The position numbers were made by a program, and so were the translations under genes. The notes below the pieces were generated by a model. That model saw only the letters and a list, made by a program, of their open reading frames with translations, was not told the origin of the DNA and ran no database searches. A stretch of DNA of 39,997 bases, from the NCBI GenBank assembly GCA_965178125.1, contig OZ237748.1, forward strand, positions 1,178,001 to 1,217,997, written 5' to 3'. Numbering within the stretch: the stretch's first letter is position 1; each line of letters opens with the position of its first letter. This stretch comes from Bilabrum cf. latius. Its lineage: Eukaryota. Shown in pieces: positions 1,454 through 35,129 of the stretch.

Positions 1454-4400
1454 TTTCGGGCTCGGCCGTCGGGGCAAATTTCCGGTGCGTTGCCAGCGTC
1501 GGAGCTCATCGGAGCGCGGCGCGTAGGTTACTCCAGGTCTCAATCTAGCGATCCGGCGGGGCGGCGGGGCGGGTTGGCGTGGTCGAGCAGAGCGGATCGC
1601 GAAAACGACGGAAAGTTTTGCAGCATTGCCCGCCCAGCGGATGCCGTTGCCAGTGGGTGCGTTGCAATGTTTGTCGAAATACGCAGAGATTTGCAAGATG
1701 GATTTTCGAGTTAGGTCCTCGTTCGCGAGCGAGGTCCCCGGACGTCCGATTTCGGCTTGCTGCCGACGGAATTCTCGAGGTTTTTCGCCCCGGCATGCGC
1801 TTTCCCAGCGGTGATCGTGAAGCCGACTGGCATACAAAGTTGCGGATGCGTGATATCAAGTGCTTGGTTGGGGTCCGATGCCGGGTCCGGCGCGCGTGCG
1901 CGGCGCTAGGTCCAATTGTCAAAGTAGGGTGGGAGCGAGCCTATATATAATATCCTTAATCGTCTTAATTCTTTTTTTCGTTGTGTGTCTCCGCTGGTGG
2001 ACCAATCCACCGGTGGATTCAGGCACATCCGATCGGATGGCGATGGCTCTGTGTTCGCTGCCATGTCTGGTTGTATTTGGGTGGTTGAGTCTGTAATAGA
2101 AGCTTTCACGGAGGTCACGATGTCAGTCAGTGACTCATCGGATGTTGCGTTGACGACTTGCGAGCTCACGCCGTCCTTGCGAAGAGAGCGTGAGGCTTCT
2201 GGCGAGCATGGTCGCTCTTGCAGCCATTTTATCACTATCTATTATATCGCATGGCGTTGCGGAGAAACTGCACGAAGGCGTGGAACAGCGCTACGAGGAC
2301 GCTCACGTGGTGTGGCACGAGCACCTGGAAGCCTCCACCGCCGCTTCCCGGCGCCTCGACGCCGCTTCATTCAGCGTCACCAGCATTAAACTGACGGCAA
2401 ATCGCGCGTTAAGCGCAAGGAGGATGCTTCGTGCGGTGCTACATGTGATCGAGGCGGCACGCCGCGTGGAGCAGGATGCCAACGCCACGATCGCGAGGCA
2501 CGGCGCGCCGCAGGAGGCACATGAGCTGCTCGAGGCCAAGTACGGTGGCATATTATGCAGCGTAAAGAAGATCATGTGCGTTCCCGAGCCGGACAAGGAG
2601 GTCAGGTGCGCGAAAAGCGGAACAACCGTGGCATATTTGAGCCTGTGATGTCAGGCAAGTCCACCACGTCACCCTCATCCTAGCTCTCGCATCACGTGGA
2701 ACTGCTGATTCAAGGAGACTTCCCAACTGATTTGGTGGAGAATGCAACGCTCAAATCCATCGATGCAGAGGTGCTGCTATTTCCCCGCCTGGACGCTGAG
2801 GTGCACGGGGTGGAAGCCATGGCGCAAGGGGTGCTTCTGGAGGCACGCGACCCAGATGCCGGCAGCCCCGCAGGAGTGGCTGAGCAGCTGCGCGCCTCTT
2901 CCCGCCGGCTGGACGCGTGGGGGACGCGGGGGCGCGAGGTAGGCAAGCGCAAGGTGGCCGTGGTGCTGTTTGAATGGACGGACCCGTACGAGGGCACGAG
3001 GTTCGAGTTTCCCGAGGACATGATCAACGGGACGTGGGAGCGGATGGCAAACCTTGACGCTCTCGCGAAGAAGTGGAGCTACGGTGCACTGGAGTGGTAG
3101 ACTGACCTGTACGGCATTTACGAGCTGGGGTCTATCCGATACAGCGACCTCGAGCTCATGGCCGAGGAGGGCGCGCGCAGGTTCGAGAGGAGTGCCGTGG
3201 GCAGGCAGCTGGACCTGCTGGAGAAGTACGACTACGTCGCCTACTGGTAGTACTGGTACCCGCCCGCCTCCTTCACGCACGCCGGCGCCTTTGCTGACCA
3301 GCTGGGCAGGTTTTCTTATTACCAGGGCCTGGCGTCAGATCCACGGTGGTTCGAATTCGTCATGATGCACGAAATCGGCCACAACTTTGGCGTGGAGCAC
3401 GTGGGGCTGCTTGATTCCGAGTACGGGGACAGGTGGAGCGTCATGGGATACGGCCCGAAGGAGGGTGCCGGCTTCATCTGCGCCGACAAGTGGAGGAACA
3501 ACTGGATCAGCGACAAGAGGACGGCCCTCGTGAGTCAGAAAGGGGCGGCTGCCGACTGCCCCGGGTGCCTGCCGAGCGGCAGCGTCATTGAGCTAGGGCC
3601 AACCGATATGACCCGCCTTCCCAGCGACGGACCTGACGCCGACACGCCGCCATCCCTGCGGCCCGAGAAGACGAGGGAGTCACAATTGCACCTGTGCCTG
3701 GGTATCGCCCTCACCCCGGAAGGCTACAAGTCCCCCCATTCATTGATGTCTCAATACACCGGCATGCCGAGCGGCTACTTCCGACGCTGGCTCTTCATCG
3801 ATACTTTTGCCTGGAGCGTAAAGGCCTACGAAAGGGGGACCGACCGCAGGGGGTAGTTGCACATGTATGTGGGGAACTACGCCATAGTGCGCAAGAACGT
3901 TAATTAGGTCAATCCGGACACGGAGTGGGAGCATTACGAGAGCGATGGGTCTGTCATTGCCGGAGTGCCCAAGGGAGGGGTGCACATCTACGACGGTTCG
4001 GATCGGCCGGAATCTCGTGATGAGTACGGAAGCCCTTTTGTTCTGATCAGGTACATCGACTCGAAGAACTGGCCGTTTGACCGCAGAGCACCCATCAACA
4101 TTTCTGCGCCCGAGGGCATGGACGCCTACCCCTCCTCTAAGGTAGCCGTAGAGTACACCAACTTCTGGGGCGATGGGCTGTACGGCAAGGGTTGCAGCCT
4201 GCACGCATGCCAGGAGACGATCCAGGAGAGGATCATGAATGCACCTCGCCTGACCCTGGGCCGGATCGACCACGAGGTTCTGGTCGCCCGGTCCGAGCAC
4301 ACCTTTACCTGGAGGATCGATGCTGGTACTGGCGGCCCTCTGCAGCTGTCCCTGTGCCCCGGGGAGAGCGACTACGACGGTGACGTCCCTCCCGTTGGTG

Positions 4401-6246
4401 TCAGCGTCGCTCTGCACCGGGAGTCAATACCGCCGAGGGAGGTGCTGGGGTACGGTGCCCACCCGCACACGCGTGCCTACGTCCGCGGCAAGCGGTGCTT
4501 CGGACAGGATAGCATCGACGAGCGGTACGCAAGCGAGTTCCTGGGGCATGTGGAGCTGGTTCCGGGCGAGAGCTACTACCTGACCGTGTCTGTGAAAGAG
4601 CCAGAGGTGGTCCTTCGCCCGAGGGAGTCGTACCCGATTCACGTCCGGCAGGAGCAGGTCAACCTGCCCTGTGATCAGGTGTCTACTCCCGTGGGGGTGT
4701 TGACGGAGCAAGAGGGGCTGGTGAACGGCAAGCGCAAGTGGGCGGATGCAGAGGGGGTGCGGACGGTGCAGTGGCCCGGCAGCGAGTGGGTAGCCACGAT
4801 CAGCGCCTTCGGACGAGACCAAACCATCCCGCTGGGAAGCGACAAATCTGCCTTCGAGAACGCCATCGTGTGCGTGTGCCCCGAGGGGGCAGTGGCGGCA
4901 TACATGAGCCTGTACTTTGGGAACGAGGACGGGGGCAGGGGCATCTGCAGGACGTGTCCCGTGGGCACCACGTCGAGGGGGGGCTCGCGCGTGCAGGAGG
5001 AGTGCATGACGCGATGTAGGCGTACGATGCAGCGAAAAATGCTGTCGAGCGAGGGGGGGGTCAGGATGCCGAGCAGGTGGGCCTGAAGCTGGCCAAGGAT
5101 ATGGTGTAGGACGGCACGTACGAGAGCGTCCCTGAGGCGATCATTAAGGAGAACATGGTGGCAATGACCGATTACCGCGCCCACGTCGTGGATGTCAAGT
5201 GGGGAGACCCTGTGCAGGGGCGTGGGTGCGCGGGACAGGTGCCGGACAGTGAATCCGGGCTTGCACCTGGCGAGTGCATAGTGGAGTACACCACCACGGG
5301 GGCCATCGCTCAGATGGCTCGCATCGACAGTTTGCTGGAAGATGGGCTCGCGACTGGTGAAAAGAGAGCCACGGTGCCAGTTAACCACACCTTCACGCAC
5401 CAGCAGCCGTGGGCATGGTGGTCCTTCACCATCGACAGGCCCACGTCCGTCTCAATCGACACCTGCCTGAACGGGTCTCGAACCGACGACCGACTGGACC
5501 TGGGCCTGGCCGTCTTCACCATCGAGTCCAACAGGTACGTGCCCGTGTGGCAGAGCCTGGGGATGAACGTCCCTGCGAGTACCAATGCCCGCAGCGTGCA
5601 GTCCCACTGCACCAATCTTGACGTGAGGTCCCCGCACAGCCAGCTGGCACATACCAGCATCCCGACCAACACGAACCACGCAACCGGCGAGTCAATCCCG
5701 GTCAAGGTCGTGGTGATGGCCTACTCGAACAACTGGCTGTACAAACCCGAGGACATGTTCTTCGATGGACAGATCATCGTGGAGTAGAGGCACTCAGTCG
5801 TCGGGTGCAGGCACAACCAGTTCTACGTCAGCACTTACTACTTCCCTGTCAGGGAGATGCCCGACCCGCAGCCGGGCACCGGCGTGCCTATGTATGCCCC
5901 CATCGTCAACGAATGGGACACCTGGCGCGCCACGTCCTTCCCGGAAGGCCGGAACTGGGACTACCTCGCCAAGGCTGGCCCTGACAGCGACAAGTGGGGC
6001 GAGTTCAACTCGACCCATCACCTGCTGAAGACCACTACGATCAATTACGAGCGCCCGTGGTGCTACTGCAGCTGGGGGAGCAACAGCTGGTACGAACCCC
6101 AGAACAAGTGCACCCTGTGCCCCAAGAACATGGTCGGCAGCGATATGAGGGGGTGCTCGTGCCCCTGGCCGATGGTTGGTGTTGGGGAGCACTGCGACCA
6201 CTGCGCCGCTGAAAATTACCTGGCACCAACTGGCTGCGTCGCCTGC

Positions 6247-6794
6247 GATCTATCACTGCGAGATTGTTTCGTCTTGGTCTACAGTCCTCGCTACGATGCT
6301 TGGCTCTCAGGGCGGTGGCGTATTGCCACCTTTGTGGACACGCGTGTGTCTAGTGACCGACCTGGCTCTATCTCCAGGTCATGTGCTAGTGGTCGGGCAG
6401 CCCTGGTATGGGCTGCCGAGTCACCATGCCTCACGGCTCTGCCAAGACTTGGATTGTCTTGGCGAAGCGGTTACAACCGCTAACAGCGCGGAGCAACAGC
6501 CTTGTATCGATTCACTGCCAGTCAGTGCTTGCCCCGCCGTTACCCTCGAAACATCAAGCAGTGGGAATCACCCCCTATGGAGTTGCCCCTGCCTGTCTTC
6601 CCAGTGTGTATTGCCACATAATGACAATTATTACTGAGAATATCGGGGCACAGCTGTAGAACACAGGTGCCACCGAAATTCCGAACAAGTGAGAGCCTCA
6701 CATCTGCGCTCGGACTTGCGACCAATACTACACAATCTCTCCGATCTAAATCACTTCGTAACGTGCCTCCGTACCTACGGCACACAACTGACGG
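6247..6794. mobile_element. Dispersed repeat, copy 2 (548 bp), inserted in the protease coding sequence
   Basis: Near-identical to 793-1453. Begins immediately after the Cys codon TGC (6244-6246) of GCVAC; no target-site duplication visible. Confidence 0.85.
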
Positions 6795-7339
6795 ACTGGT
6801 GGCAGACGCAACCTTGATTCTCGTGTGGTCGGCAAGCAGCAGTGCTCCCTGTGGGATGAAAACGCCCCCGTACCGGTGCAAGAGCAGCCCAGGAACGTGG
6901 CAACGGTCCTTTCTCTCGTGCTGGAGCCGAGCCACCAGCCTAGAACCGGCGCGATTTCACCAGCGGCGGCATCTCGCAGGAAGTTCCCATCGAGGGCCTG
7001 CTGCCGGACCCTCCCACGAGCTTCGGCAGCTCGCATGGGCTCCACCTCCTTGGCTTCCCACACGCCATTATAAGCAGCCATTGGATCCTCGTTCTGGAAG
7101 GACACTCGCAGGCGATCACAGGAAGGGGCGTCGCAGCCGCGGTACAGCGAGGCGTCAGGCATGCCCATGAAGGGGACTTCGTCCACTGGGCAATCCACAC
7201 ATTCAGAAGCGTCATCGTCTTTCGTGGAATCGAGACCGTCGCAGGTCTGCTCGCCCTCCGACTCGTCCTTGTCGGACAGCGGCTACCAGCTGCTTGCCTA
7301 CCCCGAGTCAGCCAGGATGTGGGTGTTGCGACCGATGGC
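6795..7339 (-). other. Inverted 545-bp coding segment of the protease gene
   Basis: The minus strand reads AIGRNTHILADSG*ASSW*PLSDKDESEGEQTCDGLDSTKDDDASECVDCPVDEVPF...RLRLPPV (asterisks are TAG). Flipping it joins 6246 to 7340 in frame. Confidence 0.8.
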
Positions 7340-10300
7340 GCACGACTCCGTACCCCTGCTAGCACGCTGCTCGCTGGAAAGCGACTCGGGAACGCTGCAC
7401 TTCGCTGAGACGCTGGAGGCTGGGTGCTGGGAACGGATGGGCATCGAGGCCAATCCTCTCGCGGCCACGGAATCCTGTGATCGAGCAGCGGATGGGTACT
7501 TCCTGGACGAGGAGACAGCCCTCCCATCCCTTTGCCCTACCCTCCTGAACTCAACGGATAGCAACGTGACGATGCCATCGGGCTGTGCTCCGGGTGCATT
7601 CGACCTTGCGATGCCCCGGTGGCGCAAGCACGAGATCGAGGCGATCGAGGGCACGTGCGAACCCGGATCACTGGCGGACATTGGCTGCTCCTTCGGCTGC
7701 ATGGACGGCAAGTGCACGTGCCCGGCCGGCATGGCCTACGTCTACGAGGACAGTACCTGCGAGGTGTGTCCCGGGGGTACGTTCGCCACCGCCACTGACG
7801 GCCGCTGCCAGAAGTGCCCCGACGGGTCAACGTCACGCAGGGGCACTGCCCGTGCCTCGGATTGCGAGTGCTCTAAGGGCCTGGTCATGCAGGGAGAGGG
7901 CACCAATGCGGCATGTGGTGCACCTGATAGTCTGTATGTGCGTGTGCTTGGACAGGAGCACAGCCACGTCGCGGGGCAATACGTCAGGACGCCCTCGGAC
8001 CTGCCCGGCCTGCACGATGGGTTGCTGAATGGGAGACCCGTCTACCAGCAGCTGCATCCCCTTCGCGCTCCAGGGACCTACCTGGGCTGGGCGCGGCCGG
8101 CGCAGAACGATAAGGGGGGAGAGTGGGCATTTTTCCCCAACACGACCGACGACTTTGCCAGGTTCGCTGCAGCACCCGACAGGCAGGTGCTCAGCCCCTA
8201 CTTAGTGGATCCAGACGACTGGGAGCAGTTCAACAGCTCTACCTATTTCTTCCAGAAGGACGTCGAGATTCAGGTGGTGCTCAGGAGCGGGATTGCCGGC
8301 GTGGAGCACCCAATGCACTCCACCAGAGGACCCGTTGCTATGCAGAAGCATCCTTCACAGGAACAGCTCATCGCCCGACTGGTCGAGAATGGCCTCGCGC
8401 CTGCAGACACCTGTATTTCTTCGGGCAGTGCCGAGCTCTACCACGCGCTAGAGTCGGGTCTGGAGCTCCTCAAGAGGCCCACGAGCATGCTGCAGCGGCT
8501 GCCAGGACTAAAGGGAGCCATGGACTGGGCCGCCTGCGGCGATGCAGCTATCCCAACCTATACCATCGCTGCCACTACCCAGGCCGCGATGGAGGCTGCA
8601 TCTGTTGTGCGCGGTAGAGCGCGCTACGATTCCATGGCGGCATCGGCAAGCATCCTCGAGTCCCGCCTGGAGGCACATGCAGCCTCCGTGGCGACCTGGC
8701 TAGACGCCCGCACCTGGCTGCTTGCTGGCTTGGAGGTACCCTACGAGTACAACTGCAGCGCGTCCGAGATTGCCGCCATGGACGCTAGCTTCACCGTTGC
8801 TGACGCAGTGAATGCGTTTGAAACCGCGATGAATACCATTACCGTGAACTGCAGCGACTTTGGGTCGGGTGACCTGAACGGGATGCATCCCAGTATGTAC
8901 ATGCCTGGGTCCTCTATTTGGAGGCTGCTCACCAATGGTCCTATAAAGGCCGTGCATGTGCTTGCTAATGAGACGCTAACGGATGCCAAGTTGCTGTTTG
9001 AGGGGTACGAGGAGGAGCTGGGGGCGGACTCCAGTGCGAACATGCAGGACCGTGCCGCTGCCACCGCGCAGCTGCCACTGCAGGGACTCCTTGTGCAGGC
9101 CGCAAGGGGGCTACTGGTGCTGTCAAGCGTGACTCAGACGGAAGAACAGCTGTCCAGCGGCAGCATCTCGTCGATCTCAGGTGCCATTTGCCTAAAGGAC
9201 GCGGCTTGCGATGGAGGATGGCAGACCTACACCCCGTCCAGCATGCACGTTGGGTGCCACGCCTCCTGCGAGTCGTCTGCCGACGCAGTGAGCCTTGCCG
9301 CAGAGCTCAAGACGTGTGCCAGCAACTGCCGCAGGGGCTACTGTTCTGTCGAGGGCACGTGCCAGTGCAGCGCCGGCGCGTACGGCACGTGGTGCGATGC
9401 CAGCACGCCTGCCTGCGACAATGTGAATTGCGGGCGGGACGGGGTGTGCGAGGATGGAGCGTGCAAGTGCAACGAGGGGTACGAGGGCAAGCACTGCCAG
9501 ATCCGGGTGCCCACTTACACAAGCACCTACCTGGGCGGCCCTTGCGCCATCGGAGAAGGCGGGTTCTGCGGGAGGCACGGCAAGTGCACGGTCGTGGGAG
9601 ATATGCCTGTGTGCGAGTGCCTTGACGGGTACTGGGGCTCTGCTTGCCACATCCCGTCCGGGGTTGTTGTGGCGGGCGAGCCGGCAGGGGAGGTGGCTCT
9701 ATCTACCCGTTCAGTGGTACACATTCAGGAGAATACGGTGCTGCAGAGGATTCGCGTCTCTACTGGGGCGGCGGAAGCTAGGACGGAGAAGGTGAACCTG
9801 CCGAAGGACGGGACGGCCGTGGTGATTGCCACATTCCCAGGCGTTGAGCTGCCCCGGGGGGCTCGCGTCTCCTCTGCCACGGCGCAATTCGAAGCGGATC
9901 GAGACGACAGTGAGCCCCTGGGCGTGGAGGTGTCGCTGGGGATCGTGGATGATGGAGAGGACTTCCAGCACGTCGATTCTCTTGCTGACGTGGGCATCAT
10001 GTGCGAGCCCGTGAGGTGGGAGGTGCCAAAGCACGCCTTGGAGGTGCCTGTGGTGAGCACGCCTAGCTTCGCTCGTGCCCTAGAGGAGCTCGCGGGGCAT
10101 GCGCGTTGGACTGGCTATGGCACGGTGGTGGTGATGCTGCGGTCTTGGAAGGGCACGGGGCTGCGGGCCATGCGAACGTCGTTCGCTAAGCTTGACTATG
10201 CCTTCCAGCGGCCTGTTGCGGTGGTGGTTCCTGCGGGTGATGATGCCATGGAGAGCATGAACGGCACTGCCAGCGACACGGGCGTGACGACCGTGGTCTC

Positions 10301-11564
10301 TCAGTCGGACCCCCGTTGTCCGCCTCTTGAAGGACCCACCTGCACCGGAAGAGACTTGTGGGACGGTTCCCTTGGCATGTGCGTGCTGCGCCCCGCTGCT
10401 CCCATTGTCTGCCCTCCTGGGATGCTGCTCGACACTGGGGCCCAAACCTGCTTCCCGAGGATTGAATCGGAGGTATGGCCCGTATGCATCGACGATGGCT
10501 CTGCTCTGGATACGGAGCTCCTCGAGTGCAGCTATCCCGACGAGCTGCAGCCCACATGCAGCGACACGTAGATCCTTACGAACGCGTTCTAGTGCGTCGA
10601 GGCTCCCAAGGCGCGCTTCTGTCCTCCTAACGCGCTATACAACCAGAGCTCCAAGTCCTGCGTGACTCTGTGCGAATCCAGCTCCAACGTGATCGGATTT
10701 GGAGCGAGCGGGGGCATGCCCAACGGCGACTGCGCCTTCGTCAACGCCACGGAAAACGACGGCTCCGGCACGCTTTGCCCGTCGAATCCCGTGAACTACG
10801 GGATCAAGAAGGTGGGCAACGAGGTCAAGACGGTCGTCACCGAACTGGTTGAGCAGGTGGTCAGCGGAGCCCTCACGTTCCGCGGGTTGAACCTCGGATC
10901 TTTCGGGGTGGGCATGAAAAACGCGATCAAGAGGAGCTTGGCCCGCACTGGCGGCGTGGATTCGTCCAGGGTGATTATCACCAACATCTTCCGGAAGGAC
11001 CGAGGCGCTGCTAGAAGGCTGCAGGTGGGGTAGCCCTCCAACGGCACGCAAGCCAACAACACGCAGGCCAATGGGACGTCCTCTGACGGCGGCAATTATG
11101 GTAATGGTGGTGATGACAATGGCATCACGATTGAGTACGATGTGCTTGTCGACGATCCCAACACAGCTGACGCCATCGCGACGGCTCTTGATCCAAGCAC
11201 CACCGTCAACGCATCGGCCACGGAAGGTGGCATGGGTGGTGGTAGTGGTGGAATTGGAGCTCCCCCGGTGCAGATATCGTCCCTTGCCCTCATCAGGGCC
11301 ATCTTAGAGGAAGAGCTGGAGGTGGAGAACGTCACGGTGCCAGTCGGCGCCCTTGACGTGGAGCTGGAGCCTCCGCAGCAGGTCTACCGTACCTACGACG
11401 TCGGATTCGAGGAGCCGTCTGCAGTGGACCTGGTGGGTCTGGCTATGGGCATTCCCAGCCCATCCCCCAGTCCCACGCCCTCCAGCTCGCCCACGCCGAG
11501 CATCACCCCATCCACCAGCAGCACCCCCTCTACTACCAGCACCACGACGACTACGCCCACACCA

Positions 11565-11753
11565 GTGAGTCCTCTCGTGCTCCTGCCTGCACTTGCCCAC
11601 TGCTTCGCCTGAAACTGCCCATTGACCAGGTCACATTTGTTTGTTTGCCCCCGTACATGGGTTCTCTAACCCCCTTGTACAGCCTGCTCTGGATGGTAGC
11701 AGTGTATCCGATAAATTTGTTCAAGCCATTATGGTTTTTAAACTCTCCCGCAG
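11565..11753 (+). other. Spliceosomal intron (phase 0)
   Basis: Donor GTGAGT at 11565 and acceptor CTCTCCCGCAG ending at 11753. Removal avoids TGA 11610 and continues the S/T/P stalk into a 36-nt exon (STSSTASVSATP, 11754-11789). Confidence 0.7.
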
Positions 11754-12917: not shown

Positions 12918-15900
12918 TCACGCCCTGACCTGGTCCAGGTCGGCCGGATCACCCTTCCACGGGTCTAAATACCTCCCCGCCTCACGGAAAAGCCTACCCT
13001 CTACCTCACGCGAGTAGTCCCCCCGCCGCATCTGATCGTCACCAACAACGGCCAGCGAGCACATGCAGCCCCGCCTATCTACGCACAGGAACGGATCCAC
13101 CGCCCGATTACCTCTCTGCAAGCCACCTTCACCGTCACGTCGCTGTATCATGAGCGCATCATGGGCCTATGCCAATCCACGGAGGCAAGCCTCCTGCCCC
13201 AACCGCCGACCTGCCTCCTGTATCGTCTTCCTGGCCACATCCAACTCATCCATCTCGGCATGTTCATCAGAATCGCTCCCATCGCCGTCCTCCTACCCGC
13301 ACCTGCCTTTCCTCCCGCCACCACGACCTCCGCTAGAAGCCCGTAACGACGACAGCAGCCTCTGTCCTGCCACCACATGAGCCCTCGAAGGCTCCGTCAG
13401 CTCGTGCCCCACCACATGAGGCTGCTGCTTGAGCACCTCCACCAAGCATCGGGCAACCACCACCATAGCAGCGACAGGCGAAAGGCTATCAGCTTCCTTT
13501 CCGGCCTCTCGCGACTCCTGCACCCCTTCTGCTGCCCTTCCTGCTCCTGCCGCAAGTGCTCCAGCTGCTCCCCCGCCACTCCCCCTCTCGACCAGGTCCA
13601 CCGCCGACAGACACAGCAACACGCTGTCCAACACCCGGCACAGAGCACGAGCAACCTCCGGGTCTACCACGCGCACGCAGTAGCGCTGAGCCCTAACGCT
13701 CATGGCCACAGCTGCAGCAGGACTGGCCATGCTGGTGCCAGTTGCAAGGCCGATTTTGTTCGAGGGCCACAGGCAGTCAGCCAAGGTGACCTCTGTGCCA
13801 GGCTGCCACAGCTGCACGGGGGTCCCTTCACCAGCCCCATGATCAGTTGGAGGTGCCCTCAGTCCCTGAATCACCTTGGCTGCCAGCCCACCGACCGTCT
13901 CCACCAGCCGGGACGGGTCCTGCAGCCGGTCGCTCTCCTTGCCGAATGGCGCCCACTTCTAACCATACCTTAATGTACCGTCCGGTAACCGGTGCGATCG
14001 GAATTCTTCTTGACTACACGGAGCACACAATGCCATAATGGTGAGCACAACCACAATGAGCATGGGCGTCTGCTACAAGATACTGCCGATGCTAGTGCCC
14101 ACGACCGCGGTGGTTGACAGTCCGTACGCTTGGCTCGATATAACTACAACAGCCATACTGACACCAAAACCAAGCCACAGACACTATTGTAGAGCAACTG
14201 TCCACATGAAAGTATTAGGAAAGCGCTTCCAGCGCATGCCGCTCCTGCAGTCGCAGCTTGCGCCTCCCTGACAAGGCGCACTTGACGCAGGAAATGCATG
14301 GCCCTGCAGCTCGTCACGGACAGCTCCTAGTCGAACGCATCGGGCCAACGATGCCTTCCACCGCGACCAAGGCGTGCAAGACACAAGAGCAATCAAATAC
14401 AGCGAAACAGGCTACAGCCAAAACAGCACGAAAAGTGGCAGCGTGGCCAACTTGCCGACGTCGATCCCAGAATGCTTGAACCCCTCGAAACCTAGCACCA
14501 TCGACAGAGGGACACCCACGCAGAGCACCAGCAGCAGCATGGCCAGTCGAGTAGGAAGCATCGTCATCAGCATGGACCGGGGCAGCACGCCTTGCTCAGG
14601 TGCTAAAGCTGACGAGTAGAGGGTCCATCGGCCCGTCATAGGCCAATAGAGATGGTGTGCATTTGACAGCTGCTGTATCGTCTGATCCAGGCGGTTCGGG
14701 TGCGGCAGCAGCTCCAGCAGCACCGGCACTACCACGGCCAAAGAGCAATACAACGTTCCTACGGCAACGATGGCGCGCATTTGGCTGTGATCCATCGGCT
14801 CCCTGTCCCCGTATGCCGCCTCTGCTTGCACTGCCAGAGGCCTCGCCACTGCCGTCAGCAATGCCACCATGCACCAATACGTGACTGCAACTACTTGCGG
14901 GCCGACTAAAGATTGATTATAATTGGATTCTGTCACCGAGTCAGCTGGCGGATACCTGTCTAAGGAGACTAGCGGGTTAGCGCTCGTCCCTCCCCGCATG
15001 CACCCGCACATCTGCAGCACCACCGTCCATCCGATCGTGCTGGCCGACCAAGGCTCCTTCGCCCGCACACAGCTGTAGACCATTGCAGCCACCACCTGCA
15101 GTGCACCTGCAGCCAGCACCCCAAGCAACATGGAATCGATCTGAGGCACAGGATTAGCCGCGTCGGCCCACCGTAGCTACCTCGCCGCTACGTACCGGTT
15201 CCCTGTCACATGCGGATCTCTCAGCGACACACCGCAGTAGACCATGGATCGCTTGATCAAGGCCTCTGTCTCGTTCTTATTATGCAGCATGGGTATAAGC
15301 TGAAGAACGGACCCATTCCGGGGCAGCCTCACTATGGTGTTGTACTGCATGAAGCTTCCCACCGCGCTCCCGTTGTTGCCCTCTGTGAGACCCACCGATA
15401 GGGCGTTCCTCACGCACGTCTGCTGCCAGGGTCCCAGCATCAGCAGGATTGCTACCACTACTATAGCAGCACTTAGGGCACAGCGACAGCACTGGAGATG
15501 GCACAGTAGTTCTGAATGAGAGCAGCACACAGGCGGAGTATACTTGATGCCCTCTAGCCGCCCACCGTTCGCCTTGCTTGCCTCTCCCTCCCTCTCGTCG
15601 ATCAAGTCGGCCTGCTTCTCGTACCACTGGGAGAACACGTACTCGGCCGGGGTATAGGCATTAGTGGTCTGGTTCACGACGATTGGTAGTATGCGTGGAT
15701 TGCCACGGCGATCAAGATAATCCGGGGGATACTCTTGAGGGGACTATACGAGGAGGGGGGTGGCTGCAGTCGGTTGAGGTGCGAAAGCTGGTCCTGTTCC
15801 GGCAATGACGCTAGTTACAGCATCAGCAGCAGCAGCACCTCCACCATTTCTAGCACGGCTATCGACACCTCCAGCAATACCACTGCCACCGGCACTGCTA

Positions 15901-17075
15901 CCACCCCTGCCAGTGCCATACCCAGCAGCACCATGCACTCGGCCCACTTGGTTAAGAGCAGTATCCAACGAGTGCTCAACACGGCAAGTCGTGCCATGTC
16001 CCAGCCCGCTATAGCCCTATGCTCGTACGGCTGCACGCAGTCCTCGCGGGCCGCGACCCTCCTAGGCCTCCTCACAGGGCAGGGGCAGCTCCTTGATGTG
16101 GCCCGAGCGCAGCACGCAGGGGCCTTGCCTGTACCAGTAGGGCCGGAAATCAACATTTCCGACGTTTCCCCGGCAAAATGTTGGCGCTGGCTCCTGTTCC
16201 GAAAAAGCGTCTCCCGCTGACGGCGGAGAGGCCGGGAGCCCGCGCTGATCCACCAACCCATCGAGCGCCGCCAGCGCTCCCCCGCACGGGATGGCAGCGG
16301 CAGCCAGCATAGCATCTTGTCTTGCTCTCATGATGTCAGCAGCAGAAATGTCCAAGCCGTCGCCTGGTTCTGCTGCATGATCCGGATCGCCGTGTGCGCC
16401 CGCCTGCCCGCTCGACCTGCGGACCCCTTCGCCCAACACCACTAAAGGCAGTAAGTCGTCTGCTAACCTCAAGCACAGCGATCCATAAGTATCATGATCT
16501 GCATTTCTAGCCCCAAGCTCGTCGTAACTCCCTCCGGGCCCCGTGCGGGCGGTTGCACCGTCCGCCAAGCGGATACTCGGTAGGCGCTGAGGCTTGGACA
16601 TCGATATCAACGCCTGCACAAGCTCCACTCCCTGCACAACTGACTAGCGCAGCTGATGTCGGCGGGCCGTTTGATAGCTATCCTGCGTACGGCAGTCAGC
16701 ACTGAAGGTGGCTCGGCGAACGACCTCAGCAGGAGCAAGATCCGTCAACCTCATGTGAAGAGAGCAATCTGCCGACGCTGCAACTAGCGCGTTTTGGGTC
16801 CTTGTATCTAGCATTGCCATAAGGGGCTGCCGAATTCCTGTGTAAGGTAAAACATGAGCGAGACGTCCACGAGCAGGTGGAGAATGCAGCAACCACAGCA
16901 GCAAATCACTGCGGTGCATTAGGCAATACCTCACGCCGGTCTGGCACGATTCGGCTAAATGAATCCCTGCGTCCGGCTGATGCGGTACTTGAGCGCATGC
17001 TTGCCATGCTTTGCAAGGGGTTCTGGAGTGGTGATTGTCGCATGCCGAGTCTGAATTGTTGGAACCGCACCCAAC
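12918..17075 (-). CDS. Large (about 1300-1380 aa) hypothetical multi-pass membrane protein; 5' end uncertain
   Basis: Minus-strand ORFs 16644-16934, 16062-16637, 15744-15968, 15177-15677, 14412-15149, 14184-14396, 13293-13904 and 12918-13151 are all in one frame. The frame has 11 TAGs and no TAA/TGA between 12921 and 17075, and ends at TGA 12918-12920. Many hydrophobic segments at about 14000-15500. First in-frame ATG is at 16919. Confidence 0.8.
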
Positions 17076-21700: not shown

Positions 21701-22413
21701 CACACATGCAGAGATGCGGGGGCGACCAGATACCATCGCTGCAGATGCTGTTCGAACAGTTTTATACAGCTCCCGGCTCAGCCAGCCTAGACGTCACATG
21801 CGCCTTGATGCTTTCCAACTTGCATTTCAGCAAATTGCCGCGCACTCGGAGCATTCGCCGATGCATTAAGCTGGGTGAAACGAGTCGTCGATTCTCTCCT
21901 GCGCCGATGCGACTCTGCCACGCCTGCCGAGAATCTGGCGCGGGCTGCCCTGGCCGCTGCCGCTGAGTTTGAGGAGCGCGACCTCACAATTCTCGCTGGA
22001 CTAGGCTTGGCTCACGCATTGTCCTTGGAACGGCTGGATCGTGACGAGGAAGCATGCCGCGCGTACCGCCACTCGGAGTCTGACTGCATGGCATCGGGGG
22101 AGGCGTCCTTGGACATGCAACGCACGGCGGTACAATCGATGGTCGGACATGCCAGGTGCGTTGAGTCCTCTGGTTTACAGTAGGAAGCGTTGGCCTTGCA
22201 TCGGCGCGCGCTCGAACGTGCAGCAGCTACTCTGGGAGTGGAATCGCACGAGCATGTCGACTGTCTCATAGAAACTGCAAAGTGCCTCTGGAACTTGGAT
22301 GAAGACAGGGAGGCGCTCGAGACTGCCAGGAAAGCTTTGAATCTGGCATAGTCGATTAGTGGTCGAGTTCACGACCACCAGCTGCAGGAGCTTGACATCG
22401 TGACTTCCATGAA

Positions 22414-23157
22414 AGCTTCTTTTACAGACTCGCTGGGCACCGCCGCCAGGCCGCCAAGGCTCGCTGCAGGCCCGGGGCCACTGCCTGGAGCGTGTGCAAG
22501 GGATTGATCGCGGGGAATTGACCCCAGCGGCTGCCGGGCCGGTGCTCGGCCTGCCTGCCGCGGCCGGCTGCCGGCACGAGGCCCGGCACCTGCTGGAGCT
22601 CCACCCACAGCTCCACCCGCAGCCCCTGCTGCCAGGGCGCTTGAGGTCGACACCGCGCTCCCGGCGTGCGCATGTGCGTAGGCATCCTCCGCCTTGCGAG
22701 ACAGTACGAAGGTGTCCGAGTCCTGCGCCGTTGCGGTCGGCTCAGGAAGTTCAAGCCAGGATGCGAAGGACGGGAAGGAGTCAGGCAGAACCGTGGAATA
22801 GGGTTGTCCATGCACGCCCTTCATGGTGACCACCGCTGTCAACAAGTATCGAATCATTGATTCAATTATCTGTGCGCGCTTCGGAGACCCACGCCGTACG
22901 CCTTTGATGGCCTCGTTCCACTGCGCCTCTAGCGCGAGGAGCCGCTCTGCGGTAAACCCACACACTCCGGTCACCGATGCCCATTGCATTGGATCAGACA
23001 AGGCCCCAAAGCATGCCTCAAAAAGGAAAATAGCACGTTGAAAACCGGGTTCTTTCAAGGCCAACGTCGTGAAAATGCCACGCCAAAACTGCTGAAGCCG
23101 CGCCATCACGCCCTAGCGCTCCGGCTGAACTGTATCTGCACCCGCACCCGAAGACAT
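22414..23157 (-). CDS. Truncated ORF1/gag-like protein of the insertion (function inferred from position only)
   Basis: ATG at 23157 (MSSGAGADTVQPER*GVMARLQQFW...) reaches ORF 22369-23109 through one TAG. Helical N-terminal part, then an Ala/Gly/Pro-rich linker; runs off the element edge with no stop. Confidence 0.55.
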
Positions 23158-23427
23158 GAGACCACAACAAAAAGAATTCAAGACGATCTGTCAGTCCTGA
23201 GCTCTTCCACCCCGAATGGAGGCGATTGACTGGAGAAATGCCAACCTCCACTCTTCGTGGCCTGCCTCTTCCGTTAATCAGATTACGATGTCTAACGCTA
23301 CAATTCCTCTTCCCACCTACGGACAAGGTGTTGCGGCGTTCTCCTTCTTCGCAGAGCCATCCTCATCGCACAGACGCTTATCATCTCATTTGACGTCAAC
23401 AACGAATCAGACTCTGTCTCCTTAATA
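22414..23427 (-). mobile_element. 1014-bp retroelement-like insertion: about 240-bp terminal repeat followed by a truncated ORF
   Basis: Flanked by the 7-bp direct repeat CCATGAA (22407-22413, 23428-23434). TPR coding stops and resumes at its edges. 23187-23258 recurs at 1-72. Confidence 0.7.
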
Positions 23428-25674
23428 CCATGAAGCTGAAAGGCTTCGGATCACCTACCACTCCTTCCTGTCGGACGACAGCGCACAGAGCATCCACAGC
23501 CTCAAGCGATTGCTCAAAACGTAGAACAAGCTGCTTGGCCCGAGACATCCTGATTGCGCTCGCAGTCTCATCGATATCGGGCAGGCGTACGCCGATCTGT
23601 CCAAGAACGAGATTGCGCTGCGATGGCTGACGAGCGGAGCGCACGTCCGCCGGACAGCACTAGGCCCCAACGCATGGTAGCACGCGCACGACACGTTGAT
23701 TGTTGCATCCGGCCTGCGCTAGCTAGGAGGCAATGCAGAAGCGATTGCCGAGGTGAGAAGAGCCTGCTCTCTGAGCAGCAGCGCGTGGGGCGGCAAGCGA
23801 CTCAGGCGGTGCAGGTTCGTGGCCAGAGCAAGCCAGTTGCTGTGCGAGCTTGGAGACTGTGATATGGCGGCAAAGCTCGCCACAGAGAGTTATCATGCCA
23901 TAAAGGGCAAATTGGGCCCATCCTCGCCACTCTCCGCCACGTAGCTGAAAGCAGCAAGCAACAGCCTGTTGCAGGCAAAGAAGGGCGAGTTGGCTCTGGA
24001 GCTCACAAGCAAGGCGACTAAAGCTCTGCAAGATAGCACCAATGATTCGGCACCTGGCTAGGGTCTGGCGCTTGCCCAGTGCTACGGTGTACATGCAGCG
24101 TGCTTGCGGGAGCTAGGCCAGAACGAAGACGCGCTTCAATCCGACTTGCACGTCGTTGATCGGCTGGATTCGATCCGAAAATCAAAGGCAAGTAGCCGCA
24201 ACGATTGCGAAGCGGACATACTCCGGTGGGCAGAGGCTGCATATCGGCTCGCGCAGGAAGGCTTCGAAGCAAAGGGTGATTTTGAGAGCGCTCTGGCGCT
24301 GTGCCGCAGGATCCTCGACTTCGTTGCGCATCCAGGGGCATTACGCTGCGCCAGCCGCTGCCTGCGGGCGCGTGAGCAGGCCGACATGGCTGCTGAGCTG
24401 GAGGAGGAGTTTAGCTACTTGCTCGAAGAAAGTGATGACGACAGGTCGGGTGGTCTAGGGCGTGGAGGCAGCGTGACAGAGTCGAGCGATGAAGGCAGCC
24501 AGGCAAGTGATGCAAGTGATGCGAGCGAAGAAAGCGATGCCTGGCTGCGCAAGTGCGTGTCACCCAGCAGCGTCCCACTCGTGAGCGAATTCCAAGCCCA
24601 TGCAGCGATCGGTGACGCTGCAGACGAGGCCCTCGAATGTGGACAGGTCCATGAAAGCAGAAACAGCGTCGGCCCAGTTGGCGCTGGTGCCCGCGACGGT
24701 GGCCATGAGGAGGGCGCACGTGATCCTGCATACTCCGCGATTGCACTGGACGCAGCACTCGAAGCCGGTGCAGCAGATACGTTCGAATCGACCACAGACA
24801 GCTCCTCTAGACTCAGTTGCGTGGCGTCAATCAACAAGGAGGGAGAGGCTGCTGCCGGAATGTCCTTGCCGGTGGCAGAACCAGATACCTCGGAGTCTAG
24901 CTCAGACTCGGATAGCGATATGTCGGATGTATTCTGACGCATCGGGTCAATAAAAGAAAGAAATGGGGTTATTGGTTTGTTGCTGCGATCCCTTCACCTA
25001 ATCACACGTGTTAGAGCTTTCCAAGGAGTTACAGCATTTCTCGTGCAGCGGTTAGATGTTGGCGAAATGCAAATAGCGCCGGTTGCACAAAATTTTCAAC
25101 AAGATCCGTTAGCGTGACTAATCTAAACGTCACTGGAAAAAAACAACCTAAAATTTGTCCTCAATAGTTAGCGGCGGCAGCGATGCACAAAGGAAGCCAC
25201 GAAAAATATACAAAAGGGTTAGGTTTAGGGGTTAGCCCTAAGTCATGGTGGACACCGTGATCCGGATCATGACAGGGATCACTGACAACGAGACCCGCAC
25301 CATCCATGTGGATCGTGAGCACAGGGCTAGCCACCCGGTTACCTGCCCTGCCTCTGCCAGCGCGGTATTTGGTCCAAGCCGCCCTCCCGCCCCCTAGGCC
25401 CCGCTCCCCTGCTAGCTGTTTGCTGCTTGCTTTGTCGGTAAGAACTAGGCTGTGACAACCTCGGTAATGTGCGGTACACGACTAGATCTTACCCCTGCAA
25501 GATCGCATCCTGATTGAGCGCAGTCGACCAAGAGACAAATTAATGCTGCCTGGATTATGAAGTCTGTCATTTATGCTGCTAGCCGTTTTGGTCAGTTGTA
25601 GGCTATACCTCTATTTAGCTTCTATCTGAGATATATACATTCTAGCCATATCATATAAGGTGCCCACCTCCAAC

Positions 25675-25849: not shown

Positions 25850-25850
25850 A

Positions 25851-27820: not shown

Positions 27821-28068
27821 GCTTGTCTCTGTAGAATGCATTGTGGATTCGTCAATTGTAGAATGGGTATTGTGTACATGACCGTTGTATTCGATTGATG
27901 GATTGCTTTGACTTAAGGTATTCATCGGCTGACAGCCAAGACTAAACAGAATGCCTCTTGGCTCCTACTATTCCGTCCTAACGGGTCACTGGCTGGCACT
28001 TTGGCAAGCTCCTCTCACAAGCTGGCCCAGCTGCCACTGACCTCAATTGCCATCCGCCTGGCTGCTTT

Positions 28069-29100: not shown

Positions 29101-29161
29101 TATCTATTATAAAGTCAGGGACAGGGTCGGGGAAAAATATTTTCATCTTCACTTTTTGACA
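29101..29161. repeat. Conserved telomere-junction leader, copy 2
   Basis: Near-identical to 26682-26743 and 38078-38139. Confidence 0.9.
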
Positions 29162-30813: not shown

Positions 30814-30849
30814 ATTCATTGTACTTCATTCAGTGCAAGTATGGCGTAT

Positions 30850-33331: not shown

Positions 33332-33593
33332 TGTGGGTTTGGGAATCCAGTGGTTATTGACCGATATTCAATGTTGTGGCTCGTTCTACGTAGCCATATG
33401 TATGCGTTAACCTCCTTGGTCGATACATCGCTTTGACATCAGGTATTCGTTGGCTTATAGTCAAGACTAAATAGATTGCGTCCTGGCTCCTACTATCCCG
33501 TCCTAACGGGTCACTGGCTGGCACTCTGGCAAGCTCCTCTCACAAGCTGGCCCAGCTGCCACTGACCTCAATTGGTATCCGCCTGGCTGCTTT

Positions 33594-35129
33594 TCACTCG
33601 TTATCGGAGGAGGGTTCCGCATCGACAGCTGCCAGGAGCGCCTCAACAGCGTCCACGTCTGCTGCATTGAGATCTCCTTCCGCCGTCTTCTCGAGGGCCG
33701 TCATCAGGCCTACGAGCGTGCCCAACCCGTCGTCCCTCTCTTGAATTGTTTCCTGCACGTCCTCGAGCATGTCGTCGAGAGTTCGGCTGACGCCCAGCGC
33801 TATGTCATCGCAGGCAGCGAGGATGCGGTCCACCAGGTGCCGCTGCTAGTCGGTGAAGCCGTTGTCATCCACTCCACCGTCGTTCTCAGAGTCGTCTTGC
33901 TGGTTCTGGGCCTCGTTCTCTTCTTCCTCATCCAGCTCGTCCTGATCCTCCTCGTCCTGCTGCACGAGTTCTATCGGAGCCTCATCCTCGTCCTCTTCAT
34001 CGGCTGCGTCTGCGTGGTATCGATCACCGATCTCCTCTTCATCCTCCTCAGAGTCCTGTCGAGGCAGTGATGCTGCTGCTCCACTCCTTGCGCCTCTTGC
34101 TCCCCTCTTGTCCTGGCCAACGGCGTGGCGAGCTCCTCCGCCATAGCCCGGTTGGAGAATGGGCGATCGCTTGTGCTGTATCTTAGCCCGAGGTGCCGCT
34201 TCAGTCGCCTTCCTGCGCTCCGGTTCTGCCGGTTGCGCACCTTCATCCCTCGGCTTTCCCTTTGACTTTCCCTTTGACTTGCCCGCGGCCTTGGTCCTGG
34301 CCTTCAATTTGGCCTTTGCCTTTTCCCTGGCCTTGGCCTCCGCTCTCCGCTTGGGGCCGAGTAGGTCGTTGTTCAGTCGCTCGGTCTATGAGTCGCTGGA
34401 CTCTGAGCCGTCTGAATCTTGCTCGCCTCGTTTCCTCTGGGCCTTGTAGGCACTGTGGTCCGCGACACCGTCGTCGGGGTCGTCCTCGTCGTCGTCGACC
34501 ATGGCACTCCGTTTGTCCTTGCCAGCACGGGGTGCTCCACTCGGCGAAGCAGCAGCGGCTCCCGCAGAAGCATCTTGGTCCCCTGCGGCTGCCGCGGCAG
34601 AGTCCTTGACTGCCATGTCAAACACGTCTTGGAACACAGCCTGCATGCCTCCACGCGCACGCACAGAGGCTTTCCCAGCTCCGTAGTCGCAGACGAACTT
34701 GATCGCGGTCTTGTAGTTCCTCCGCAAGCCATCCATGCCTGCCTTGAACCAAGGATTGTGGCTGGTAGAGTAGCCGCTGTCGCGCAGGCCCATGAGCATC
34801 TAATTCATCTTGCGGTAGCCTGGCGAGCTGGTGCCGCTAGTTGATGCAGCCGGATATAGGCGGTGACTCAGCACCTTCAGCATGTCAGGCGGCAGATCGG
34901 ACTCATTCAGGTCCAGCATGGCATCCACGCAGGCTTTGATGCCCTCTTTCTTGGTCCCCTAGTAGTGCTCGGTAGACCCGCAGAGTAACCCGCAATCTTG
35001 GTGGAGGCCCACGAGGGAGATCAGCAGGACTTGCTTGGCAGCAGACGTGCTGACGCCTGAAGCCAGGGCAGCCACGACGGGGCGGGAGGCCTTGGTGTGC
35101 TTGACGCTGTAGCTCTTTGCGGCGGCCAT
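33594..35129 (-). CDS. Hypothetical 511-aa protein: helical N-terminal domain, basic Lys/Ala region, acidic region, coiled-coil-like C-terminus
   Basis: ATG at 35129 (MAAAKSYSVKH...). Four in-frame TAGs (34959, 34800, 34386, 33846) join ORFs 34959-35291, 34386-34799, 33846-34307 and 33594-33833; ends at TGA. A paralogous fragment at 28069-28266 keeps the frame. Confidence 0.85.

What the first reader, a model, noticed from the sequence alone, without database searches (positions are those of the whole stretch)
2208..35129. Alternative nuclear genetic code: TAG is a sense codon throughout the window
Seen: protein-like frames are cut only by TAG and continue in the same frame. Counts are 16 in the protease gene (e.g. 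3098, 3248, 3854, 3905, 5785, 10569, 10590, 11031), 11 in 12918-17075, 12 in the TPR gene, 4 in 33594-35129, and more in the element ORFs. The HExxHxxGxxH catalytic domain connects to its signal peptide only through TAGs. Inference: this is genome-wide reassignment, not pseudogene decay, because random nonsense mutation would also create TGA and TAA, and two of the genes (12918-17075, 33594-35129) show no other lesion.
Basis: partly seen in the sequence, partly recalled or inferred. Interest (0 to 1): 0.93.

Follow-up and report, generated by a model that had tools for sequence, protein, structure and literature searches.

The report
TAG read as glutamine codon
In this GC-rich eukaryotic chromosome end, and in related environmental DNA, genes are interrupted only by TAG, which most likely encodes glutamine while TAA and TGA remain stops: a rare but already known type of nuclear genetic code.

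Summary
The core observation holds. Seven long frames in the window carry 39 in-frame TAG and no in-frame TGA or TAA before their terminal stop. The off-frames hold 7-27 TGA each. Coding signal stays in the same frame across TAGs in 25 of 26 segments.

A DNA run reproduces the sequence with 0 differences. Mutational decay is rejected (P about 1e-10 to 1e-12).

Twenty-two related loci from four metagenomes show the same pattern: frames of 322-1752 codons, cut only by TAG and bounded by TGA or TAA. All 162 stops inside homology alignments are TAG.

TAG best fits glutamine. The window's TAG at 19804 sits in a column where 12 of 12 homologues have Q. Over 119 family TAG sites, Gln beats the next residue by 14.7 nats, with bootstrap 992/1000.

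TAA is not a sense codon: 0 seen against about 11 expected.

This matches the known UAG-to-Gln code (NCBI table 15 type), here in an unidentified non-ciliate-like lineage. No tRNA(CUA), eRF1 or peptide evidence could be obtained.

Two reader details fail. The protease signal peptide and catalytic domain lie in different frames. The TPR gene has a real frame change.

The parts
2525..5086 (+). Metzincin-type protease frame (HEIGHNFGVEH) with in-frame TAG at 2681, 3098, 3248, 3854 and 3905
   Evidence: Pfam Peptidase_M11 gives 5.5e-5, 22.8 bits against a cut-off of 21, matched only around the zinc motif. TAG 2681 may instead be an intron end (untested).
4675..6483 (+). Second protease frame with in-frame TAG at 5017, 5107 and 5785. 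It overlaps the first frame, so a frame change is needed somewhere in 4675-5086.
   Evidence: No Pfam hit.
7074..11612 (+). Third frame of 1512 codons, Cys-rich and EGF-like, with TAG at 10569, 10590 and 11031
   Evidence: Pfam EGF_TEN gives 9.8e-7, below its cut-off.
12918..17075 (-). Frame of 1385 codons encoding a multi-pass membrane-like protein of no known family. It has 11 in-frame TAG and no other in-frame stop.
   Evidence: No Pfam hit and no homologue by word search. Contigs of run X5 cover 12973-16836 with 0 differences and 0 gaps.
19237..21894 (+). CLU-like domain gene. Homology to relatives runs in one frame, with TAG at 19435, 19804, 20626, 20920 and 21328.
   Evidence: Pfam CLU 3.3e-8. 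102 homologues were found, the best at 51% identity. HSP map.
19804..19806 (+). TAG codon lying in a conserved glutamine column (RV-Q-V)
   Evidence: 12 of 12 homologues with a residue there have Q in alignment A1. 22 of 42 BLAST rows have Q. Three related loci also have TAG at this column.
21809..22507 (+). Continuation of the same gene in another frame, TPR_12-like, with 2 in-frame TAG. The frame change lies near 21852-21857.
   Evidence: (TPR_12 9.6e-6, below cut-off).
23426..24937 (+). TPR frame with TAG at 23522, 23678, 23720, 23942 and 24059
   Evidence: Pfam TPR_12 gives 1.6e-11.
33594..35345 (-). Frame encoding an acidic, low-complexity protein (ATG at 35129) with TAG at 34961, 34802, 34388 and 33848
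   Evidence: No Pfam hit.

Best explanation
The organism, and a clade of relatives seen in metagenomes, reads UAG as a sense codon, most likely glutamine. UGA and UAA remain terminators. This is the same code as NCBI table 15 (table number recalled).

Shown here:
- UAG lies inside conserved coding sequence.
- Only UAG does so.
- UAG aligns preferentially with Gln codons.

Inferred from established knowledge (Panek et al. 2017, PMC5304391, passages read):
- Decoding is by a tRNA-Gln with anticodon CUA, which pairs with UAG but not UAA.
- An eRF1 N-domain with weakened UAG recognition accompanies it.

About 15% of Gln codons in the window's frames would be TAG (36 TAG, 154 CAG, 48 CAA). Some genes of this subtelomeric window also carry frame changes that are separate from the code question.
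For: Window:
- 39 in-frame TAG against 0 in-frame TGA/TAA before the terminal stops in 7 frames. Off-frames carry 7-27 TGA each.
- The mutation null gives P = 2e-12 to 2e-10.
- Coding score is best in the TAG-containing frame in 25 of 26 inter-TAG segments.
- There is no shared sequence context around the TAGs.
- DNA run X4 is identical to the window.

Relatives:
- All 22 of 22 loci have frames of 322-1752 codons cut only by 1-22 TAG and bounded by TGA, TAA or a contig end.
- All 162 stops inside non-self tblastn HSPs (E<=1e-10) are TAG; 0 are TAA or TGA. This count includes near-duplicate loci.
- Six neighbouring genes with Pfam E<=1e-21 carry 29 TAG.
- A GH3 alignment to a solved xylosidase (E 1.8e-101) runs through 3 TAG and ends at the homologue's C-terminus, followed by TGA.

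Amino acid:
- TAG 19804 sits in a column with Q in 12 of 12 homologues.
- There are 119 TAG sites in 19 non-duplicate family sequences. Of the 18 in well-conserved columns, 8 are Q columns, against a Q background of 3.5%.
- In a family-specific likelihood, Q is best by 14.7 nats over E and 15.6 over R, with bootstrap Q in 992 of 1000.
- In contexts at least 60% identical, the partner codon at a TAG site is CAG 27, CAA 8 and TAG 27. The 64 other rows include 18 Arg codons.
- 50 database fragments end inside an alignment, and 14 of them have at least 10 partners. Four of the 14 stop just before a conserved Q: 12/13, 23/27, 11/13 and 10/12.

TAA:
- 0 in-frame TAA among 36 UAR codons in 5987 codons. 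About 11 would be expected at the CAA/CAG ratio of 48/154, and 0.762^36 = 6e-5 (my arithmetic counts).

Weak hint of transcription:
- Contigs of X5 and X6, from two studies, both end at 12973, where the sequence reads AG|GTATTT and DNA run X4 continues.
- An X5 contig fits only from its base 85, at 16836, next to ...TTACACAG|G.
- The run kinds are guesses.
Against: - No tRNA of any kind and no Rfam match was found in the window or in the related loci (tRNA: all 22 loci; Rfam: window plus 12 of the 22 loci). The decoding tRNA is therefore unseen.
- eRF1 is not in the window and no genome is held.
- There is no peptide evidence and no run on record as RNA.
- Within the window itself, only 1 of the 5 homology-supported TAGs lies in a conserved column. 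The other four are in variable columns.
- In the family alignment, 10 of the 18 TAGs in conserved columns sit in non-Q columns: P 3, R 3, S 2, D 1, G 1. One of them (L021) is in a column with R in 16 of 18.
- A simple pseudocount log-odds put R and Q level, at -85.7 against -85.8.
- Single comparison with a solved GH3 gives P, S and Q at three TAGs.
- The family is multi-copy and the counts over pairs are not independent.
- Use of TAG as a terminator as well cannot be excluded. TAG lies 2-5 codons before the closing TGA in L003 and L019.
Confidence: 0.83

Rival explanations
1. TAG is a sense codon but stands for another residue (Arg, Glu, Ser or other) rather than Gln.
For: - A simple log-odds tied R with Q, at -85.7 against -85.8.
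- Arg codons are the second commonest partners at TAG sites, 18 of 99 non-TAG rows.
- One TAG sits in a column with R in 16 of 18.
- UAG-to-Leu, UAG-to-Ser and UAG-to-Glu codes are known elsewhere (PMC11687900, passages).
Against: - The family-specific likelihood favours Q by 14.7-15.6 nats, with bootstrap 992/1000.
- Gln codons are 35 of 99 partners, against a 3.5% background.
- Q-to-R exchange is a common one-step substitution, which accounts for the Arg partners (general knowledge).
- Database fragments stop before conserved Q, and no other residue recurs as a strongly conserved next residue: E, L and W each follow one fragment.
Confidence: 0.07
2. UAG has two meanings, as in Condylostoma-type or Blastocrithidia-type codes: Gln inside genes and stop near mRNA ends. 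Alternatively it is read by efficient near-cognate readthrough without a dedicated tRNA.
For: - No tRNA(CUA) was seen.
- TAG lies 2 codons before the closing TGA in L003 and 5 codons before it in L019.
- C-termini of the family are not conserved, so true ends are unknown.
Against: - TAG density of 0.4-1% of codons across frames of 1000 codons or more would need near-complete readthrough at up to 22 sites per gene.
- The GH3 gene ends at TGA exactly at the homologue's C-terminus.
- The frames listed close with TGA or TAA, but TAA/TGA define those frames, so that does not test TAG termination; no gene was seen to end at TAG alone.
Confidence: 0.07
3. The frames are decaying pseudogenes or targets of a RIP-like C-to-T process (CAG to TAG) in a multi-copy subtelomeric family. 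On this reading the TAGs are true nonsense mutations at former Gln codons.
For: - The window is subtelomeric and repeat-rich.
- The CLU-like/TPR family has many copies.
- The TPR gene has a real one-base frame change, and the protease gene changes frame three times.
- CAG to TAG would mimic a Gln signal.
Against: - CAA to TAA and CGA or TGG to TGA would occur too. Under C>T/G>A changes only, TAG is 56% of outcomes, giving P = 1.7e-10 for 39 of 39.
- 0 TAA or TGA among 162 in-HSP stops in relatives.
- Conserved enzymes of several unrelated families (P450, GH3, PLD, GTP cyclohydrolase II, SET, Pan3), not shown to be multi-copy, carry TAG as well.
- Frames up to 1752 codons stay open apart from TAG.
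- GC3 remains high, 0.62-0.81.
Confidence: 0.02
4. The TAGs are removed before translation, either as 3' ends of small in-frame introns or by RNA editing.
For: - Two TAGs (2681, 5107) coincide with possible GTCAGG...TAG introns of 83 and 50 nt that would also repair frame changes.
- Splice-like motifs exist at 12972 and 16838.
Against: - TAGs sit inside ungapped conserved blocks with no extra residues relative to homologues, for example RMVRV-TAG-VYARV against RVIRVQVFA.
- No polypyrimidine or other shared motif lies upstream of the 39 TAGs.
- X5 contigs carry the TAGs unchanged, although that run may be DNA.
Confidence: 0.01

Closest known systems
UAG-to-Gln with UAA and UGA kept as stops (NCBI table 15 type; table number recalled). 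Reported in Iotanema spirale, Protocruzia tuzeti and two phyllopharyngean ciliate lineages (PMC11687900 and PMC5304391, passages read).
   Same: Only UAG is a sense codon. It aligns with Gln. UAA and UGA close the frames.
   Different: - The window has 60% GC and long TTAGGG arrays. I recall ciliate macronuclear telomeres as G4T2/G4T4 and their genomes as AT-rich, so it does not look ciliate.
- Relatives encode a cytochrome P450 and a CLU-like protein, which fits an aerobe better than the anaerobic fornicate Iotanema (inference).
- The lineage itself was not identified.
UAR-to-Gln codes (NCBI table 6 type). Reported in many ciliates, Hexamita, Streblomastix, ulvophycean green algae and Amoeboaphelidium protococcarum (PMC11687900, PMC6299283, PMC8271138, passages).
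   Same: A stop-to-Gln reassignment in a nuclear genome. An M11 (gametolysin-type) protease motif recalls green-algal biology (the link is only a lead).
   Different: - TAA is not used in frame: 0 seen against about 11 expected, and 0 of 162 in relatives.
- TAA closes several frames.
- Amoeboaphelidium genomes are about 40% GC (PMC10608142, table 1), against 52-60% here.
UAG-only reassignments to other residues: Leu in the rhizarian exLh and some phyllopharyngeans, Ser in Scotinosphaera, Glu in an oligohymenophorean ciliate (PMC5304391, PMC11687900, PMC8271138, passages).
   Same: UAG is uncoupled from UAA. The presumed mechanism is a tRNA with anticodon CUA.
   Different: Leu, Ser and Glu fit the TAG columns worse than Gln. 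E is 14.7 nats and S 19.1 nats below Q, and L is not among the best eight.

Membership tests
UAG-to-Gln nuclear code (table 15 type) | In-frame UAG inside conserved coding sequence | tested here: met
   - 5 TAG inside the homology-supported CLU-like region of the window.
- 162 TAG inside HSPs across the window and 22 loci.
- 3 TAG inside a GH3 alignment with E 1.8e-101.
UAG-to-Gln nuclear code (table 15 type) | UAG positions correspond to Gln in homologues | tested here: met
   - Q in 12 of 12 homologues at TAG 19804.
- Q best by 14.7 nats, bootstrap 992/1000, over 119 sites.
- 35 of 99 non-TAG partner codons are CAG or CAA.
- Against: 10 of 18 conserved-column TAGs are in non-Q columns.
UAG-to-Gln nuclear code (table 15 type) | UAA and UGA are not sense codons and do terminate | tested here: met
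   - 0 in-frame TAA or TGA.
- About 11 TAA would be expected if UAR were Gln.
- Frames close with TGA or TAA.
- The GH3 gene ends at TGA at the homologue's C-terminus.
- No TAA terminator was confirmed by a conserved C-terminus.
UAG-to-Gln nuclear code (table 15 type) | UAG is not used as a terminator | tested here: inconclusive
   C-termini of the family are not conserved. TAG lies 2-5 codons before the closing stop in L003 and L019.
UAG-to-Gln nuclear code (table 15 type) | A tRNA-Gln with anticodon CUA | not testable with these tools
   No tRNA gene in the window or in the 22 loci. No genome is held.
UAG-to-Gln nuclear code (table 15 type) | eRF1 N-domain altered so that UAG is not recognised | not testable with these tools
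   eRF1 is not in the window.
UAR-to-Gln code (table 6 type) | UAA also in frame at Gln positions | tested here: not met
   0 TAA among 36 in-frame UAR codons in the window. 0 of 162 in relatives.
Codes with all three stops reassigned or ambiguous (Condylostoma, Blastocrithidia, Amoebophrya types) | In-frame UGA as well as UAR | tested here: not met
   0 in-frame TGA, against 7-27 in the off-frames. 0 of 162 in relatives.

The most novel reading that the evidence does not exclude
A so far undescribed, environmentally recurrent clade of GC-rich, non-ciliate eukaryotes has uncoupled UAG from UAA and reads it as Gln, at about 15% of Gln codons. That would be an independent origin of this code under GC-rich rather than AT-rich composition. 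It would also mean that standard-code gene callers have shredded this clade's proteins in public databases: its family members appear as fragments ending before conserved Q.
Probability: 0.4. Interest if true: 0.75.

Novelty: new member of a known kind. Interest (0 to 1): 0.62.

Why it matters
Nuclear code changes are rare, and cases where UAG and UAA differ are rarer still.

A further lineage, apparently outside the ciliates and with a GC-rich genome, would add an independent data point on how UAG escapes eRF1 while UAA does not. It would also test whether GC pressure can drive such a change.

There is a practical consequence. Every gene of this organism and its relatives is mis-called under the standard code. 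Database homologues here are fragments of 72-480 residues from genes of more than 1000 codons. Annotation, phylogenomics and metagenome binning for this clade therefore need a UAG=Gln code.

Tried and rejected
- **Whole genome:** none is held for this window. Codetta-type inference, a tRNA(CUA) search and an eRF1 search were therefore impossible.
- **Word-based protein searches, all without hits:**
  - CLU-like frame, near lengths.
  - 12918-17075 frame, shorter lengths.
  - Protease catalytic part.
- **tRNA and Rfam scans:** tRNA scan of the window and all 22 loci, Rfam scan of the window and 12 of the 22 loci, nothing found.
- **Sequencing runs:** no RNA holder is listed.
  - The kinds of X5-X7 are guesses.
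  - X5-X7 give no cover over most of 2200-11000. That is not evidence of silence, and I do not use it to argue that X5 is RNA.
- **TPR-region TAGs against family homologues:** only 7 HSPs, all in variable columns, so uninformative.
- **C-termini of full-length family members:** they do not align, so terminator use at true ends could not be read from them.
- **Intron models for the protease frame changes:** dozens of GT..AG pairs are compatible, so none is resolved.
- **Protein Atlas:**
  - With database homologue P0030 it only returned CLU-family clusters, the top one being commonest in Euglenozoa. That does not place the organism.
- **Taxon:** not identified.
  - Amoeboaphelidium was considered and set aside on GC content (PMC10608142, table 1).
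  - Ciliates were set aside on TTAGGG arrays and GC (recalled telomere types).
- **Literature:** six full-text searches found no report of a GC-rich non-ciliate UAG-to-Gln lineage. The library lacks most subscription papers, and supplements were not opened.
Full report
**What the window is**

It is eukaryotic nuclear DNA of about 55-63% GC over most of its length. Its right third is built from long (TTAGGG)n arrays, all with the G-rich strand on +. These lie at 25874-26682, 28267-29101, 35582-35695, 37753-38078 and 39395-39997, the last running off the window. They are interleaved with a 155-bp satellite and a 22-bp satellite. This looks like a chromosome end with interstitial telomeric arrays.

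**Checking the observation**

I took TAA and TGA as the only stops. Seven long frames then appear:

| Frame | Codons | In-frame TAG |
|---|---|---|
| 2525-5086+ | 853 | 5 |
| 4675-6483+ | 602 | 3 |
| 7074-11612+ | 1512 | 3 |
| 12918-17075- | 1385 | 11 |
| 18577-21966+ | 1129 | 8 |
| 23426-24937+ | 503 | 5 |
| 33594-35345- | 583 | 4 |

- That is 39 in-frame TAG, with no in-frame TGA or TAA before the closing stop.
- The two other frames of each stretch hold 7-27 TGA.
- A coding score was trained only on the homology-supported CLU-like region. It is highest in the TAG-containing frame in 25 of 26 inter-TAG segments of at least 40 codons, so the reading frame continues across the TAGs.
- The 39 TAGs share no upstream motif such as a pyrimidine tract.
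- Contigs of DNA run X4 reproduce 2200-6273, 6766-17118 and 18991-22199 with 0 differences, so the TAGs are not assembly errors.

**Is it decay?**

Using the window's own codon usage, single-base changes that create a stop give TAG 50-54% of the time for transition/transversion ratios of 1-10. With C>T/G>A changes only, the share is 56%. The probability that all 39 are TAG is therefore 2e-12 to 2e-10.

A RIP-like process (CAG to TAG) would also turn CAA into TAA. With CAA/CAG = 48/154, about 11 TAA would be expected among 36 such events in the trimmed set of 5987 codons. None is seen, and 0.762^36 = 6e-5 (my arithmetic counts).

**Relatives**

A full HMMER search with the CLU-like frame (TAG as X) found 102 proteins at E<=1e-3, 9 of them at E<=1e-30. 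The best has 51% identity. Almost all are short fragments. They come from Logan, ENA, JGI and NCBI records without names.

I examined 50 fragments whose alignment reaches their last residue while the partner goes on.
- 14 of them have at least 10 partners.
- Four of those 14 stop immediately before a strongly conserved Q: 12/13, 23/27, 11/13 and 10/12.
- One more of the 14 ties Q with F.
- The others are followed by P, E, V, L, W, D or G, and probably end at contig ends.

A scan of metagenome contigs with a core alignment (A2) gave 22 loci from four metagenomes, at 52-60% GC.
- In all 22, the matched frame is cut only by TAG (1-22 per frame).
- It runs for 322-1752 codons, against 147-511 under the standard code.
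- It is bounded by TGA, TAA or a contig end.

Inside non-self tblastn alignments (E<=1e-10) there are 162 stop codons, all TAG. That count includes near-duplicate loci.

Neighbouring frames on these contigs encode cytochrome P450, a PLD-like protein, a GH3 glycosidase with a WSC domain, GTP cyclohydrolase II, a SET protein and Pan3. Their Pfam E-values run from 1e-21 to 1e-57, and they carry 29 in-frame TAG in all.

The GH3 frame aligns to a solved beta-xylosidase from residue 184 to its last residue (E 1.8e-101). The alignment passes through three TAGs and is followed by TGA.

**Which amino acid?**

The window's TAG at 19804 lies in the block RV-x-V. There, 12 of 12 homologues with a residue have Q in alignment A1. 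By BLAST, 22 of 42 rows have Q. The other four homology-supported TAGs of the window are in variable columns.

I made a MAFFT alignment of 19 family sequences. L002, L004, L006 and L018 were dropped as near-duplicates. It has 119 TAG sites with at least 4 aligned residues.
- Of the 18 in columns with at least 60% consensus, 8 are Q columns. The rest are P 3, R 3, S 2, D 1 and G 1. Background Q is 3.5%.
- A crude pseudocount log-odds tied R and Q.
- A likelihood using the family's own substitution profile puts Q first, by 14.7 nats over E and 15.6 over R, with Q winning 992 of 1000 site bootstraps.
- Where the 20 flanking columns are at least 60% identical, the partner codon at a TAG site is CAG 27, CAA 8, TAG 27 and Arg codons 18, with 46 others. 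These are pair counts and are not independent.

Glutamine is thus the best reading, but it rests mostly on relatives.

**TAA and TGA**

Neither occurs in frame. Both close frames. TGA is confirmed as a true terminator at the GH3 C-terminus. I could not confirm a TAA terminator at a conserved C-terminus, because family C-termini do not align. For the same reason, use of TAG as a terminator as well is not excluded.

**Transcripts**

No run is on record as RNA. Two observations are weak hints only:
- Contigs of X5 and X6, from two studies, both end at 12973, where the - strand reads AG|GTATTT and DNA run X4 continues.
- An X5 contig of 1867 nt fits the window only from its base 85, at 16836, next to ...TTACACAG|G.

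If X5 is RNA, the 3.86-kb exon 16836-12973 carries all 11 TAGs unchanged (0 differences, 0 gaps). The tool itself marks X5 as probably DNA.

*Protease gene.* The ATG at 2208 opens a signal-peptide-like frame that TGA at 2646 closes. The catalytic frame is a different one. So the link needs an intron or a frameshift, not only TAGs. Two more frame changes follow, within 4675-5086 and within 6483-7074. Many GT..AG pairs could join the frames. Two examples, 2601-2683 and 5060-5109, would turn TAG 2681 and 5107 into intron ends. None of this was tested.

*CLU-like/TPR gene.* The closest relative reads through residues ...LHYTKGPHNH-ADAIWW... in one frame. The window needs a one-base frame change near 21852-21857. 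That change is present in DNA run X4 and in the X5 contig 21167-22199. This copy may be a damaged member of a multi-copy family. That does not bear on the code, because relatives keep single open frames of up to 1752 codons.

**Mechanism**

This part is inferred. A tRNA with anticodon CUA reads UAG but not UAA. eRF1 changes at guanine-reading positions lower termination at UAG. Both points are discussed for Iotanema and the rhizarian exLh in PMC5304391 (passages read). Neither component could be looked for here.

**Comparison with known codes and novelty**

The code type is known. UAG-to-Gln with UAA retained is reported for Iotanema spirale, Protocruzia tuzeti and phyllopharyngean ciliates (PMC11687900, passages). 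It corresponds to NCBI table 15 (recalled).

The window does not look like a ciliate: it has TTAGGG arrays and 60% GC (ciliate telomere types recalled). It does not look like Amoeboaphelidium either, which is reported as UAR-to-Gln with about 40% GC (PMC6299283 passages; PMC10608142 table 1).

Six literature searches found no matching lineage. The organism remains unidentified, and the library is incomplete. I therefore file it as a new member of a known kind, with moderate confidence that the lineage is undescribed.

Noticed in passing
window 25874-39997: There are five (TTAGGG)n arrays, all G-rich on the + strand. Three of them are each followed by a 155-bp satellite (26744-27820, 29162-30817, 38139-38859). 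There is also a 2.5-kb array of a 22-bp unit (30852-33327). The last telomeric array runs off the window end, in the orientation expected for a chromosome end.
   Followed up: no
window 16874-19541: High-copy repeat. Word depth in DNA run X4 is 2000-4000, against about 52 for flanking single-copy sequence, with many variant contigs and internal joints. No Pfam hit in its frames. The first 400-650 bases of the 18577-21966 frame belong to this repeat, not to the CLU-like gene.
   Followed up: partly
window 6273-6766: Moderately repeated segment (depth about 1400 against 52) at which the X4 contigs break. It lies between the second and third protease frames.
   Followed up: no
window 35957-38089: A stretch of 68% GC that is open in several frames on both strands. 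The + frame of 710 codons (Ala/Pro/Gly/Glu-rich) runs straight into a TTAGGG array, read as (GL)n. No Pfam hit. It may be a telomere-associated element.
   Followed up: partly
window 21852-21857: One-base frame change in the CLU-like/TPR gene relative to its closest relative P0011. It is present in the DNA run and in the X5 contig.
   Followed up: yes
window 12972 and 16838 (- strand): Contig ends of X5/X6 coincide with AG|GTATTT and with ...TTACACAG|G. One X5 contig has 84 unplaced 5' bases. This suggests introns or a 5' exon for the 12918-17075 gene, in which case its true C-terminus lies elsewhere.
   Followed up: partly
L001-L022 (metagenome loci): The CLU-like domain plus KLC-type TPR family is multi-copy. 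14 of the 22 loci come from one metagenome, with pairwise identities mostly 30-55%. Standard-code gene calls have cut its members into fragments in public protein sets.
   Followed up: partly
L011:168-3113 (-): GH3 beta-xylosidase-like enzyme with an N-terminal WSC domain. Its best matches among solved structures are xylan 1,4-beta-xylosidases. Their fungal origin is recalled, not shown by any search. This is only a faint lead to the affinities or the diet of the clade.
   Followed up: no
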